This document shows, piece after piece, positions 1-1,782 of a stretch of DNA of 1,782 nucleotides. The position numbers and the translations under genes are program-made. This DNA is from Naegleria gruberi (Eukaryota). Position 1 is the first letter of the stretch, and each line of letters begins with the position of its first letter. The DNA lies in assembly GCA_000004985.1 (NCBI GenBank), contig GG739327.1; one strand, given 5' to 3'. Under the pieces are notes generated by a model that did not search any database, was not told where the DNA came from, and saw nothing but the letters and a program-made list of their open reading frames with translations.

Positions 1-27
1 TATTGATGATGAACACATTTTTTTTAG

Positions 28-69
28 ATCGTCGGTTGGTTGAAAAATCCTCCAAAAACTGGAAGCAAG
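28..69 (+). CDS. putative 42-nt internal micro-exon, spliced in frame to the 375..634 exon
   Basis: It is flanked by an acceptor (T8 run 18-25 then AG at 26-27) and a donor (AAG|GTAACT, GT at 70-71). In the reading phase with codons starting at 30, it encodes RRLVEKSSKNWKQ with no stop. That leaves 1 nt (G69), which joins A375 and T376 to make GAT (Asp). The splice therefore continues exactly into the open frame-2 ORF of the downstream exon. This phase match has about a 1-in-3 chance of occurring randomly. Confidence 0.22.
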
Positions 70-374
70 GTAACTTGTAATTTTTTACAAATCTGTTGAA
101 AAAGAGGTACCAACTTTTGGAACAACAACAAAACTTGGCAGTTGAAATTTTATTGTTTTTTTATTTTTTGTTTTTTTAATTTTTTTGCCCCTAACTTTCA
201 CCACTTCTCTAAAGTTGAACCTATTTTTCATCATTCGGGCGGTCATCTTGCAGCGGTTTTTGCAAATGAAATCATTCTATTTTATTTATTATTTTTTAAT
301 TTTTTAATTTTTATTTTAATAATTTGGCGAAGACCCCTCTCCCCCTGCGTGCTGTAATTTATCCTTCTTCCCAG
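70..374 (+). other. putative 305-nt intron (GT...AG) separating the two proposed exons; very T-rich low-complexity interior
   Basis: Donor GTAACT at 70-75 and acceptor cttcttcccAG ending at 374. The interior is dominated by poly-T and TTTTTTAA-like units, which is typical of nematode introns. Translating it in frame 1 gives the Phe-rich artefact ORF 142..357. Confidence 0.22.
142..330 (+). repeat. T-rich low-complexity / simple-sequence tract (poly-T runs and TTTTTTAA-like tandem units)
   Basis: Directly visible: tttattgtttttttattttttgtttttttaatttttttgcccc (about 150-190) and ttattttttaattttttaatttttattttaataattt (about 287-323). These are interrupted only by a short GC-richer island at 232-262. 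Confidence 0.6.
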
Positions 375-634
375 ATCAAGAGAAAGAAATTCCTAAAGAA
401 AAAGAAGAAAAAGAAGAAAAATTGTCATTTATCGGAAACATTCGTGAAATTATCTCTGAATTGATAGAGGAAATCTTTTCTTCAGCCCTGCGTTTTGCAA
501 TTTTACTAATTTTGAAACTTCTCCTCATTTATTATATTGTTGTGAATTATGGAAAGGATTTATTGAAATTTGCTTGGCATGCTGTAATGTCATCTGATGC
601 AGAAGATCTTGAGAAAAGACTCAAAAATAAATAA
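375..634 (+). CDS. putative terminal coding exon of an upstream + strand gene; encodes a Lys/Glu-rich segment followed by a C-terminal tail-anchor-like TM helix and a short tail; stop TAA at 632-634
   Basis: Frame 2 is open from 323 to the TAA at 632-634. The track ORF 422..634 is the same frame, with TTG miscalled as M. A polypyrimidine tract plus CAG (tccttcttcccag, AG at 373-374) gives a credible 3' splice acceptor, putting the exon start at 375. Translation: (D)QEKEIPKEKEEKEEKLSFIGNIREIISELIEEIFSSALRFAILLILKLLLIYYIVVNYGKDLLKFAWHAVMSSDAEDLEKRLKNK*. The hydrophobic stretch AILLILKLLLIYYIVV lies ~30 residues from the C-terminus. AATAAA overlaps the stop. Confidence 0.4.
626..631 (+). other. 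canonical polyadenylation signal AATAAA overlapping the TAA stop of the 375..634 exon
   Basis: The sequence caaaaATAAATAAtcc contains AATAAA at 626-631, and the stop TAA sits at 632-634. This fits the 3' end of a transcript ending shortly downstream, roughly 645-660. Confidence 0.35.
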
Positions 635-665
635 TCCAGATTATTCGAAACTATTAGTTTACTTC

Positions 666-679
666 CAATTAGCAATTAG
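666..679 (+). repeat. perfect tandem direct repeat CAATTAG x2 (AATTA/TAAT homeodomain-type cores) in the intergenic region
   Basis: acttcCAATTAGCAATTAGaagt: the two 7-mers at 666-672 and 673-679 are flanked by the inverted pentamers ACTTC and GAAGT. Confidence 0.5.
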
Positions 680-1055
680 AAGTTCTGTAAAGTTGACTTT
701 TGAGCATAAACCTGGTTGAACATGAAGTTCTGGTTTAACTAGTATTTTTCTTCACCATTGCCATTTGACTTGACAGTTTCAGCAAAAGTAAAATTTCTAA
801 TAGTCCAAGAAGATACCAGCTTTTCATTAGCCAAGAATCCAAGAACTCGGTTAGGAATTTTTGATTGAACTTATCTTCCATCTGGCCATCCATAGCTCAA
901 AAAGTTTCATGATCCAATCTAATTGCCTTGTTTGTTAACTGTTTCTAAAACCATCACAACATCTCAACACACCATCTGTGAGTCACTGACATTGCATCAA
1001 AATCACCAGTCTCACATTAAAATTCAAAACAAAAAAGAAAACACACACAACCATC

Positions 1056-1061
1056 TTTCAG
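1056..1061 (+). other. consensus nematode 3' splice acceptor TTTCAG 22 nt upstream of the ATG; candidate trans-splice (SL) acceptor or end of a 5'-UTR intron
   Basis: atcTTTCAG|ttattaccattataaatacaacATG. In Caenorhabditis, SL1 trans-splicing uses a UUUCAG acceptor a few to a few tens of nt upstream of the initiator ATG. No in-frame ATG lies between the upstream stop at 1018-1020 and 1084. Confidence 0.35.
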
Positions 1062-1071
1062 TTATTACCAT

Positions 1072-1078
1072 TATAAAT
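1072..1078 (+). promoter_or_regulatory. TATA-box-like TATAAAT motif, 6 nt upstream of the ATG at 1084
   Basis: The sequence is ccatTATAAATacaacATG. It is too close to act as the core promoter for initiation at ATG 1084 if transcription starts ~30 nt downstream. Either it is an incidental AT-rich word or the true initiator is a downstream ATG, for example ATG 1144. Confidence 0.15.
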
Positions 1079-1083
1079 ACAAC

Positions 1084-1782
1084 ATGTCTTTTGGATTTTA
1101 CAAAATATTGGGAAGTTCCTGTTTGATTGGAGGATTTATTGGAATGACACTCTTTTTAATTAGTACTATCGTTACTTTTGTCTGTATTAATATTGATTAT
1201 TACTATGTAAATGATCCTGAGGCTGTGAAATTCAAGATGGTCAACTGTTGTCAAATTACATCGTTACAAAATTGTGAGACGAGCAGCAGGGGAACAACAT
1301 TTTGCAGAACTACTGTAAAATATCCATCCAATTTACAAAATCTGATCGAAATAGTTCAAAAATCCAATTCTGCTTATTACAAACTCACAACAGATTCTCA
1401 AAAATATGAAAAGAGAGAAGAAATTAATGCACCTTTTTATTTTAATCCAAATAATGTTAGTTTATATGAATATTACTCTGAGGATTATCCTAGAAATTTG
1501 TGGTTGGATTTTAATTGTAGAGCTATGGTTGAATATGTTGTAAATGGAACAAATTCAGAGTTGACCAATTCTTTCACAAGCTCAAATTATCCAAATTTAG
1601 CATCGTTTAATAGCTCACTTTCTCTAACAATGATAGAGAAAGTACTCAGATCGCAGGTAAGCGACAAGGTTCAAGTTTCGAAACAAGAACAAGTAGGAGA
1701 CTATATGAATTGTTATACGAATTCGAATGGAGAAACTCTCTTTTCTAACAGATATAGCTATTTATACAAGAATTTACTTGGA
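1084..1782 (+). CDS. 5'-complete, 3'-truncated ORF (233 codons, runs off window end) encoding a predicted single-pass membrane protein with an N-terminal signal anchor and a Cys-containing, N-glycosylation-site-rich ectodomain; family not recognised
   Basis: I translated frame 1 by hand. TAA at 1018-1020 is the nearest upstream in-frame stop, and ATG at 1084 is the first start codon after it. No stop occurs from 1084 to 1782 (MSFGFYKILGSSCLIGGFIGMTLFLISTIVTFVCINIDYYYVNDPEAVKFKMVNCCQITSLQNCETSSRGTTFCRTTVKYPSNLQ...NGTNSELTNSFTSSNYPNLASFNSSLSL...KNLLG). With about two-thirds A+T, a 233-codon open frame is very unlikely by chance. Residues ~8-36 are uniformly hydrophobic, consistent with a signal anchor or TM helix. 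Downstream there are 8+ Cys and at least four N-x-S/T sequons (NVS, NGT, NSS twice). Codon composition is non-repetitive and looks protein-like. The supplied track omits it, presumably because it has no in-window stop. Confidence 0.6.
   Translation, partial: MSFGFYKILGSSCLIGGFIGMTLFLISTIVTFVCINIDYYYVNDPEAVKFKMVNCCQITSLQNCETSSRGTTFCRTTVKYPSNLQNLIEIVQKSNSAYYKLTTDSQKYEKREEINAPFYFNPNNVSLYEYYSEDYPRNLWLDFNCRAMVEYVVNGTNSELTNSFTSSNYPNLASFNSSLSLTMIEKVLRSQVSDKVQVSKQEQVGDYMNCYTNSNGETLFSNRYSYLYKNLLG

What the first reader, a model, noticed from the sequence alone, without database searches (positions are those of the whole stretch)
28..634. Two-exon 3' end of an upstream + strand gene: micro-exon 28..69 splices in frame to exon 375..634, which ends in a tail-anchor-like TM helix
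Acceptor T8-AG (18-27), donor AAG|GTAACT (69|70) and acceptor cttcttcccAG (374) define a 42-nt exon and a 305-nt T-rich intron. In the one phase of the micro-exon that is stop-free and leaves 1 nt over (G69), splicing to A375 T376 rebuilds codon GAT. It then continues seamlessly into the long open frame that the track reported as 422..634. The product ends in a KE-rich stretch, a hydrophobic helix ~30 residues from the C-terminus, then stop, with AATAAA on the stop. This is the layout of a tail-anchored membrane protein 3' end.
Basis: partly seen in the sequence, partly recalled or inferred. Interest (0 to 1): 0.5.

Follow-up and report, generated by a model that had tools for sequence, protein, structure and literature searches.

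The report
Last exon of unannotated Naegleria gene
The 375-634 stretch is very probably the real, intron-preceded last coding exon of a small, unannotated, lineage-restricted membrane protein of the amoeba Naegleria gruberi, but the proposed 42-base "micro-exon" upstream of it is not supported; this is an ordinary missed gene.

Summary
The window is a whole 1782-bp scaffold of the Naegleria gruberi NEG-M assembly.

The 103-codon open frame is not significant on its own (P about 0.07-0.13). It has no homologue among 5.8 G and 1.84 G database proteins.

A third N. gruberi allele settles most of the question. This is L001, a 2951-bp ENA contig.
- It matches the window from 372-375 to 1782. Homology stops at the predicted acceptor cttcttcccAG|ATCAAG.
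- Exon 2 is 98.8% identical, with one in-frame 9-nt indel. The 3' flank is 91.9% identical, with 5-, 7- and 10-nt indels.
- In L001 the frame continues uninterrupted to an ATG, giving a 146-aa protein. The residues before DQEKE are ...FFKKKIPA, not ...SSKNWKQ.

So the exon, frame, acceptor, stop and C-terminal helix are supported. The micro-exon and its donor are not. The true 5' exon is not in the window, so window 1-374 is most likely all intron. The L001 N-terminus resembles a mitochondrial presequence, which weakens the "tail-anchored" label. Whether L001 is genomic (an intron presence/absence difference) or RNA-derived is unresolved.

The parts
375..631 (+). Coding part of the 3'-terminal exon. 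A375 T376 complete a split GAT (Asp) codon, followed by 85 codons: QEKEIPKEKEEKEEK...DLEKRLKNK.
   Evidence: The frame is open. It is 254/257 identical to L001 184-449, with one 9-nt in-frame indel. The adjacent 3' flank is 91.9% identical (Fisher p = 2e-4). In L001 the same frame extends to an ATG, giving a 146-aa ORF whose 149-codon open frame has P = 0.0076 by chance.
632..634 (+). Stop codon TAA.
   Evidence: It is identical in L001.
626..631 (+). AATAAA hexamer. It overlaps the last two sense codons and abuts the stop. It is a candidate poly(A) signal.
   Evidence: The sequence is shown and is identical in L001. Use as a poly(A) signal in Naegleria was not tested.
333..374 (+). 3' splice site: an 80%-pyrimidine, C-rich tract (333-372) followed by the AG acceptor (373-374).
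   Evidence: Composition is given. Homology to L001 begins at 372-375. The shared CAG at 372-374 matches the exon-end CAG of L001, and AG 373-374 is the only AG that fits.
1..332 (+). Most likely intron sequence. The T-rich core is 145-322 (54.5% T). The 5' splice site and the 5' exon lie beyond the scaffold end.
   Evidence: Smith-Waterman and tblastn find no similarity to L001 1-183 on either strand. The strong T>A skew on the + strand is shown. No Rfam family or tRNA is found, and only low-complexity T-rich repeats are present. The intron identity of this stretch is inferred, not shown.
28..69 (+). It is not supported as part of the gene.
   Evidence: It is absent from the L001 ORF, which reads ...KKKIPA|DQEKE. 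It is one of seven phase-1/1 stop-free AG..GT cassettes in 1-372. No database protein contains it.
488..544 (+). Codons for the single hydrophobic (transmembrane-like) helix LRFAILLILKLLLIYYIVV.
   Evidence: Kyte-Doolittle 19-residue maximum of 2.45. The coordinates were checked. The stretch is 100% identical in L001. AlphaFold models 377-631 as one long helix with pLDDT 82.9.
635..900 (+). 3' UTR and intergenic spacer.
   Evidence: It is 91.9% identical to L001, with 5-, 7- and 10-nt indels that would break any reading frame.

Best explanation
The window is a 1782-bp scaffold of Naegleria gruberi NEG-M, apparently a second allele of a locus on a 275-kb scaffold.

Positions 375-634 are the last exon of a small + strand protein-coding gene that is missing from the reference annotation. 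The exon is entered through a canonical acceptor: a pyrimidine tract at 333-372 and AG at 373-374. The junction falls in phase 1 of an Asp codon.

The exon encodes three elements:
- a Lys/Glu-rich linker;
- an amphipathic helix;
- one hydrophobic membrane-spanning helix, followed by a 29-residue charged tail, a TAA stop and an adjacent AATAAA.

The orthologous allele L001 encodes a 146-aa protein. Its first 57 residues are basic, Ser/Thr-rich and free of acidic residues, and they join directly to DQEKE. In the window allele, that 5' exon is not present. Window 1-374 is therefore best read as the 3' part of a single intron of at least 374 nt, whose donor lies beyond the scaffold end. The 28-69 "micro-exon" is intronic sequence that happens to carry splice-like motifs.

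The likely protein is a lineage-restricted single-pass membrane protein anchored by its C-terminal helix. It may be imported into mitochondria through an N-terminal presequence and arrested in the inner membrane. This last step is inference only.
For: Organism and scaffold identity:
- Gene 2 is 98% identical to N. gruberi XP_002671267.
- The annotated partial protein XP_002668098.1 lies on a contig of exactly 1782 bp and equals the translation of window 1084-1656.

Reality of the exon:
- L001 aligns to window 372-1782 at 94.5% identity and stops at the acceptor.
- The exon is 98.8% identical with a 9-nt in-frame indel. The flank is 91.9% identical with frame-breaking indels (Fisher p = 2e-4).
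- The L001 frame is open for 149 codons back past an ATG in an A8-ATG context like that of gene 3 (P = 0.0076).

The 5' exon is absent from the window.

Intron plausibility:
- N. gruberi has 1.7 exons per gene and a mean intron of 203 bp (PMC8296547).
- The L001 upstream exon ends ...CAG, the usual exon-end consensus.

Membrane helix.

Presequence-like N-terminus: 10 K/R, 0 D/E and 11 S/T in 57 residues, against 18 D/E in the remaining 89.
Against: - No transcript evidence was available.
- The donor and the 5' exon of the window allele were not seen.
- All three substitutions in the exon are non-synonymous, so purifying selection on the protein is not shown by dN/dS. Only the low overall rate and frame preservation support it.
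- The gene-2 upstream region 901-1083 is non-coding yet 98.4% conserved, so conservation alone does not prove coding.
- No homologue exists in any database, including other Naegleria species. No Pfam or PDB match was found.
- The JGI annotation has no model here in either allele.
- The 3-nt CAG shared at the junction would also fit a microhomology-mediated deletion.
- The helical hydrophobic moment of the L001 N-terminus is modest (maximum 0.39).
Confidence: 0.7

Rival explanations
1. Positions 28-69 are a genuine internal 42-nt exon, spliced T8-AG|...|GTAACT and joined to 375. It would be either constitutive or a cassette inserted between the L001-type 5' exon and exon 2. Its phase (1/1) would allow that, and it would add DRRLVEKSSKNWKQ.
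For: The motifs are present and are the best of the candidates in the window. The cassette is phase-compatible with the ...GCA G| end of the L001 5' exon. The composition of 1-144 is less T-rich than that of 145-322.
Against: The orthologous ORF or transcript in L001 joins ...KKKIPA directly to DQEKE, with no trace of these 14 residues. Seven such cassettes arise in 372 nt. GTAACT lacks the usual +5 G (general knowledge). No database protein contains the peptide.
Confidence: 0.08
2. The window holds a complete two-exon gene. ATG at 6 (or 9) starts a 64-nt first exon ending at 69. The intron is 70-374 and the last exon is 375-634. The product is 107 aa (MMNTFFLDRRLVEKSSKNWKQ|DQEKE...). It would be a true tail-anchored protein whose 5' exon differs from that of L001.
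For: ATG ATG at 6-11 is in the same open frame as the micro-exon, and 22 codons are open upstream of the donor. The donor phase fits. The 305-nt intron is near the species mean of 203 bp.
Against: This model needs a non-homologous replacement of the entire 5' exon between alleles that are 98.8% identical in the next exon. The combination of an in-frame ATG, an open frame and a GTAA donor is roughly a 1-in-5 chance event here (own estimate). Only 5 nt of upstream context is visible. The exact 107-aa and 106-aa products are in no collection.
Confidence: 0.07
3. Window 1-374 is not an intron. The window allele would be 5'-truncated or rearranged, for example by a deletion or insertion with CAG microhomology, or the small Sanger scaffold would be chimeric. 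The acceptor-like sequence would then be coincidence, and 375-634 a dead remnant of an intact intronless gene like that of L001.
For: The scaffold is tiny and separate from the main 275-kb scaffold. There are 3 nt of microhomology at the break. Pyrimidine-rich runs are common next to the T-rich tract. The three substitutions are all non-synonymous. N. gruberi is a heterozygous diploid (PMC9928731).
Against: The break falls exactly after an AG that is preceded by a 40-nt, 80%-pyrimidine, unusually C-rich tract (36.5% C at 323-374, against about 14% elsewhere). It also falls exactly where the upstream exon ends in CAG. The exon is as well conserved as intact gene 2 (98.8% against 98.9%), with the frame kept.
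Confidence: 0.12
4. 375-634 is not protein-coding at all. It would be conserved non-coding DNA, for example a UTR or regulatory region, with a chance open frame.
For: The window ORF length is not significant. No homologues exist. The nearby non-coding region 901-1083 is equally conserved. The codon-position composition test has little power.
Against: The frame stays open in a second allele and there extends to 149 codons with an ATG (P = 0.0076). The only indel is 9 nt and in frame, while the flank indels are 5, 7 and 10 nt. G is enriched at codon position 1 (0.31, against 0.07 and 0.14). The product has a coherent architecture of linker, helix, membrane helix and charged tail.
Confidence: 0.03

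Closest known systems
Tail-anchored (C-tail-anchored) membrane proteins, such as the mitochondrial outer-membrane and ER proteins inserted by the GET/TRC40 or related routes
   Same: There is a single hydrophobic helix close to the C-terminus, with 29 residues after it. The helix has moderate hydrophobicity, an internal Lys and charged flanks. The rest of the protein is hydrophilic.
   Different: The orthologous full-length protein (L001) has a 57-residue basic, acid-free N-terminal region that looks like a targeting presequence. Tail-anchored proteins lack N-terminal targeting signals. No sequence relationship to any known tail-anchored family was found.
Small single-pass mitochondrial inner-membrane proteins imported by a cleavable presequence and laterally sorted (stop-transfer)
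   Same: The architecture in L001 is a basic, hydroxylated, acid-free N-terminus, then a charged linker, then one membrane helix, then a short tail.
   Different: The comparison rests on composition only. Amphipathicity is modest (maximum moment 0.39). There is no homology to any characterised family and no localisation data. The N-terminal part is not encoded in this window.
Ordinary U2-type GT-AG spliceosomal introns of N. gruberi (1.7 exons per gene, mean intron 203 bp; PMC8296547)
   Same: A pyrimidine tract plus CAG acceptor is present. The flanking exon ends in CAG. The intron lies in phase 1 within a codon and its interior is T-rich.
   Different: The 5' splice site is not visible. If the 5' exon is off-scaffold, the intron is at least 374 nt, longer than the mean. 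The one comparable allele (L001) has no intron at this site, or has had it spliced out.
Intron presence/absence polymorphisms and introner-type recent intron gains (known from, for example, Daphnia and Micromonas; recalled from general knowledge)
   Same: If L001 is genomic DNA, two conspecific alleles differ by the precise presence or absence of an intron at one codon. A CAG lies on both sides of the site.
   Different: It is not shown that L001 is DNA rather than RNA-derived. The 5' end of the insert is unseen, so target-site duplications or terminal repeats cannot be checked. No paper in the library focuses on introners in Naegleria: only three papers hold both words, and I did not read them for this.

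Membership tests
Tail-anchored membrane protein | Exactly one transmembrane segment | tested here: met
   There is one Kyte-Doolittle peak (2.45) at LRFAILLILKLLLIYYIVV. The L001 N-terminal 57 residues have no comparable hydrophobic stretch (sequence). AlphaFold gives a single long helix.
Tail-anchored membrane protein | Transmembrane segment within about 30 residues of the C-terminus | tested here: met
   The helix ends at peptide residue 70 of 99, so 29 residues follow it. This is at the upper edge of the usual definition.
Tail-anchored membrane protein | No N-terminal signal or targeting sequence | tested here: inconclusive
   The N-terminus is not encoded in the window. In the L001 orthologue, the first 57 residues have 10 K/R, 0 D/E and 11 S/T. 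This looks like a presequence and argues against membership. No dedicated predictor was available.
Tail-anchored membrane protein | Post-translational, GET/TRC40-type or unassisted insertion | not testable with these tools
   This needs biochemical or cell-biological assays.
Spliceosomal GT-AG intron ending at 374 | AG acceptor preceded by a pyrimidine tract, at the exact point where a spliced or intronless orthologue diverges | tested here: met
   Window 333-372 is 80% pyrimidine and AG lies at 373-374. The blastn and MAFFT homology boundary with L001 lies at 372-375.
Spliceosomal GT-AG intron ending at 374 | GT donor directly after an exon orthologous to the codons that precede the junction in the orthologue | tested here: not met
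   This test applies to the proposed donor at 69|70 and to any other site in the window. No similarity to L001 12-183 (...AAAATTCCAGCAG) exists anywhere in the window. The real donor, if there is one, must lie off-scaffold.
Spliceosomal GT-AG intron ending at 374 | Removal from mature RNA | not testable with these tools
   No transcript data could be reached. L001 would count as such evidence only if it is RNA-derived, and its origin could not be established.
Presequence-targeted mitochondrial membrane protein | Basic, hydroxylated, acid-free N-terminus able to form an amphipathic helix | tested here: inconclusive
   Composition meets the criterion in L001. The hydrophobic moment is only 0.34-0.39. 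This region is not part of the window.
Any curated protein family (Pfam, PDB sequences, 1.84 G representatives) | Significant sequence similarity | tested here: not met
   Pfam best E-values are 0.078-0.081, below the curated cut-offs. The best PDB E-value is 0.069. The only phmmer hit is a bacterial repeat surface protein matched in 4 repeat stretches, judged spurious.

The most novel reading that the evidence does not exclude
L001 is genomic DNA. The uninterrupted 146-aa ORF it carries, and the intron-interrupted window allele, would then be conspecific N. gruberi alleles. The three alleles of the neighbouring gene are mutually equidistant, at 4 aa differences in 233. That would make this a precise spliceosomal-intron presence/absence polymorphism, either a recent gain or a recent reverse-transcriptase-type loss. 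It would lie in a heterolobosean, inside a fast-evolving orphan gene, with a CAG on both sides of the site.
Probability: 0.3. Interest if true: 0.55.

Novelty: new member of a known kind. Interest (0 to 1): 0.25.

Why it matters
The result adds one small, lineage-restricted membrane-protein gene to N. gruberi. The reference annotation missed it on both alleles.

It shows how a tiny alternate-allele scaffold can mislead. The only annotated model on the scaffold is itself truncated at a false donor.

The one potentially interesting point is the possibility of an intron presence/absence difference between conspecific alleles. Naegleria is often used to infer ancestral eukaryotic intron content, so such a difference would give a datable intron gain or loss event. 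That depends on metadata and reads I could not reach.

Tried and rejected
- Word-index protein searches with the spliced peptide, and with the read-through peptide plus exon 2, found nothing. Searches failed on parameter limits.
- An exhaustive phmmer search gave one spurious bacterial repeat protein.
- Pfam on the window peptide and on the L001 full-length protein gave only sub-threshold noise. PDB sequences gave nothing.
- A JGI metagenome scan used a concatenated exon-2 + gene-2 query. It matched 600 pattern hits, none confirmed.
- Exact-product look-ups of window ORFs all failed (70, 71, 53 and 57 aa). So did look-ups of P0001 and P0003.
- Exact look-ups of six candidate full-length products found none in the collection.
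- A codon-position composition score trained on gene 2 was too weak to discriminate. Gene 2 itself scores only +2.7 bits in cross-validation.
- ORF-length shuffles of the window were not significant.
- Rfam, tRNA and repeat scans of the putative intron found nothing except T-rich low complexity.
- Literature searches for the ENA study and run accessions returned no papers, so the DNA or RNA nature of L001 stays open.
- I did not run a fold search. The model is a single helix, so matches would be meaningless.
The frame is continuous and identical across it in L001.

Full report
**What the window is.** The DNA is AT-rich (about 30% GC) and eukaryotic in style. The long + strand ORF from ATG 1084 to the window end is 98% identical to "predicted protein [Naegleria gruberi]" (P0001, XP_002671267, 263 aa). 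Its 90% cluster also holds XP_002668098.1. That entry is a 191-aa "partial" N. gruberi protein lying on a contig of exactly 1782 bp. It equals the translation of window 1084-1656 residue for residue. The window is therefore a complete small scaffold of the NEG-M assembly, apparently a second allele of a locus on a 275,174-bp scaffold. N. gruberi is described as a heterozygous diploid (PMC9928731). It has 33% GC, 1.7 exons per gene and a mean intron of 203 bp (PMC8296547).

**Checking the observation.**
- T8-AG at 18-27;
- a 42-nt stretch at 28-69;
- AAG|GTAACT at 69|70;
- cttcttcccAG ending at 374;
- a splice product that reads exactly as written, with G69 + AT rebuilding GAT;
- TAA at 632-634;
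- AATAAA at 626-631, which abuts the stop rather than lying on it.

The hydropathy profile has one peak of 2.45 over LRFAILLILKLLLIYYIVV (window 488-544), 29 residues before the end. AlphaFold on the exon alone gives one long helix (residues 6-83, pLDDT 82.9).

**Is it more than chance within the window?** It is not.
- The frame is open from 323 to 631 (103 codons). A frame that long occurs in 7-13% of dinucleotide shuffles of the upstream 1 kb.
- An 85-codon open frame lies in the plainly non-coding T-rich tract 100-354.
- A codon-position score trained on gene 2 has too little power to help. G is, however, enriched at codon position 1 (0.31, against 0.07 and 0.14).
- Seven phase-compatible, stop-free AG..GT cassettes exist in 1-372.

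**Homology searches.** All came back empty.
- The spliced 99-aa peptide has no hit among 5.8 G clustered proteins.
- It has no real hit among 1.84 G representatives scored exhaustively. The single hit is a bacterial repeat surface protein matched in four repeat stretches, which I judge spurious.
- A query that also included the read-through peptide LMMNTFFLDRRLVEKSSKNWKQGNL found nothing even at E <= 10.
- The NEG-M proteome is in that database. Neither the exon, the micro-exon, nor a read-through C-terminus is therefore part of any annotated N. gruberi protein.
- Pfam and PDB give only noise.

**The decisive comparison.** A third member of the gene-2 cluster (P0004) led to L001. L001 is a 2951-bp contig of an ENA metagenome assembly (ERZ929261 / ERR1078381 / PRJEB11402). 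It carries three + strand genes: one at 3-452 cut by the contig start, gene 2 at 927-1718, and a third from 2082.

The three alleles of gene 2 (window, P0001, L001) differ pairwise by 4 residues in 233. L001 is therefore N. gruberi at allele-level divergence.

blastn aligns window 372-1782 to L001 181-1625 at 94.5% identity. Region by region:

| Region (window coordinates) | Identity to L001 | Indels |
|---|---|---|
| Exon 2 coding, 375-631 | 254/257 (98.8%) | one 9-nt in-frame indel (an extra Glu-Glu-Lys in L001) |
| Flank, 635-900 | 91.9% | 5, 7 and 10 nt |
| Gene 2 | 98.9% | none internal (the 15 gap columns are an artefact of where I cut L001) |

The exon-against-flank difference gives Fisher p = 2e-4. 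Stop and AATAAA are identical in the two alleles.

**What lies upstream.** Homology ends exactly at the predicted acceptor. The window has ...ccttcttccCAG|ATCAAGAG and L001 has ...aaaattccagCAG ATCAAGAG.

Upstream of that point, L001 is an uninterrupted ORF back to an ATG at position 12, in the context cagaaaaaaaaATG. Gene 3 has the same A8-ATG context. The ORF gives a 146-aa protein:

MLKRVITSINTKPLWNCKFTKSVLPLSSSHGQLIKSTNNFQLNNVISRQFFKKKIPA|DQEKEIPKEKEEKEEKEEKLSF...KRLKNK

A 149-codon open frame there has P = 0.0076 under Markov resampling.

Smith-Waterman and tblastn find nothing resembling L001 1-183 anywhere in the window on either strand. L001 has nothing resembling RRLVEKSSKNWKQ.

Three conclusions follow:
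- The acceptor at 374 is real. It is an 80%-pyrimidine, unusually C-rich tract plus AG, and it sits exactly where the upstream exon ends in CAG.
- The orthologous 5' exon is not on this scaffold.
- The micro-exon is not part of the conserved coding sequence.

The most economical reading is that window 1-374 is the 3' part of one intron of at least 374 nt.

**Alternatives kept open.**
- The micro-exon is phase 1/1, so it could in principle be an extra cassette (confidence 0.08).
- Its frame is open from window position 3 and contains ATG ATG at 6-11. A self-contained 107-aa two-exon gene is therefore formally possible (0.07). That would need a wholesale non-homologous swap of the 5' exon between alleles that are 98.8% identical next door.
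- The window allele could be a 5'-truncated or rearranged copy, or a chimeric scaffold. CAG would then be deletion microhomology and the acceptor-like tract a coincidence (0.12).
- The stretch could be non-coding (0.03).

**DNA or RNA origin of L001.** I could not establish this, because the accessions are in no paper of the library.
- Three genes with their spacers on one contig suggest genomic DNA.
- The contig begins only 11 nt before the ATG. Intron polymorphisms between conspecific alleles are also very rare. Both points suggest a spliced, read-through RNA contig.

Under either origin, the verdict on the finding is the same. If L001 is genomic, this is an intron presence/absence difference within N. 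gruberi, which I give as the most novel reading (probability about 0.3).

**What the protein is likely to do.** No family membership can be claimed. The visible architecture is a Lys/Glu-rich linker, an amphipathic helix, one membrane helix with an internal Lys, and a 29-residue charged tail.

The L001 N-terminus has 10 K/R, 0 D/E and 11 S/T in 57 residues. The remaining 89 residues have 18 D/E. This is the composition of a mitochondrial presequence, although the helical moment is modest (at most 0.39).

My inferred mechanism is a small single-pass membrane protein held by its C-terminal helix. It may be imported by a presequence and arrested in the mitochondrial inner membrane. Classical tail-anchoring is the alternative if the N-terminus is not a targeting signal. 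Both are inference. Only the helix and its position are shown.

**Verdict.** The terminal exon, frame, acceptor, stop and C-terminal helix hold up. The micro-exon, its acceptor and donor, and the 305-nt intron length do not. "Tail-anchored" is doubtful.

This is an ordinary missed gene in a draft protist genome, so its interest is low. The unresolved intron presence/absence question is the only part that might be more.

Noticed in passing
window 1084-1782 (donor-like site at 1656|1657): The scaffold's only annotated model is XP_002668098.1 (191 aa, partial). It ends at a false donor, CAG|GTAAGC. The two other alleles (XP_002671267 and L001 927-1718) read straight through to 263 aa with a C-terminal hydrophobic segment. 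Gene 2 is an orphan Cys-containing protein with hydrophobic segments at both ends. Its only Pfam hit is a sub-threshold match to Her-1 (E = 0.021).
   Followed up: partly
window 6-11: ATG ATG lies in the same open frame (3-77) as the proposed micro-exon. The T8-AG acceptor at 27 is therefore not needed. A self-contained 107-aa two-exon model (6-69 + 375-634) is formally possible.
   Followed up: partly
window 901-1083: The CA-rich region upstream of the gene-2 ATG is 98.4% identical to L001, apart from 1-nt and 16-nt indels. The spacer 635-900 is 91.9% identical. This points to a conserved 5' UTR or promoter for gene 2.
   Followed up: no
L001 1-12 and 2071-2084: The ENA contig starts only 11 nt upstream of the gene-1 ATG. 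Gene 1 and gene 3 share an A8-ATG start context (cagaaaaaaaaATG and ctcaaaaaaaaATG). The contig could be RNA-derived, and its library type is unknown.
   Followed up: partly
L001 2082-2951: A third + strand gene encodes a hydrophobic protein of at least 290 aa, apparently multi-pass, with no Pfam family above threshold (best hit Psg1, E = 0.024).
   Followed up: no
window 100-354, + frame 1: An 85-codon open frame runs through the T-rich low-complexity tract (FFIFCFF...). It shows that open frames approaching 100 codons arise by chance in this DNA.
   Followed up: yes
window, P0001 and L001: gene 2 codons 22, 46, 59, 76, 105 and 177: The three alleles of gene 2 are mutually equidistant, at 4 aa differences per pair. 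Window against L001 shows 4 synonymous and 4 non-synonymous codon changes. Both genes at this locus evolve fast.
   Followed up: yes
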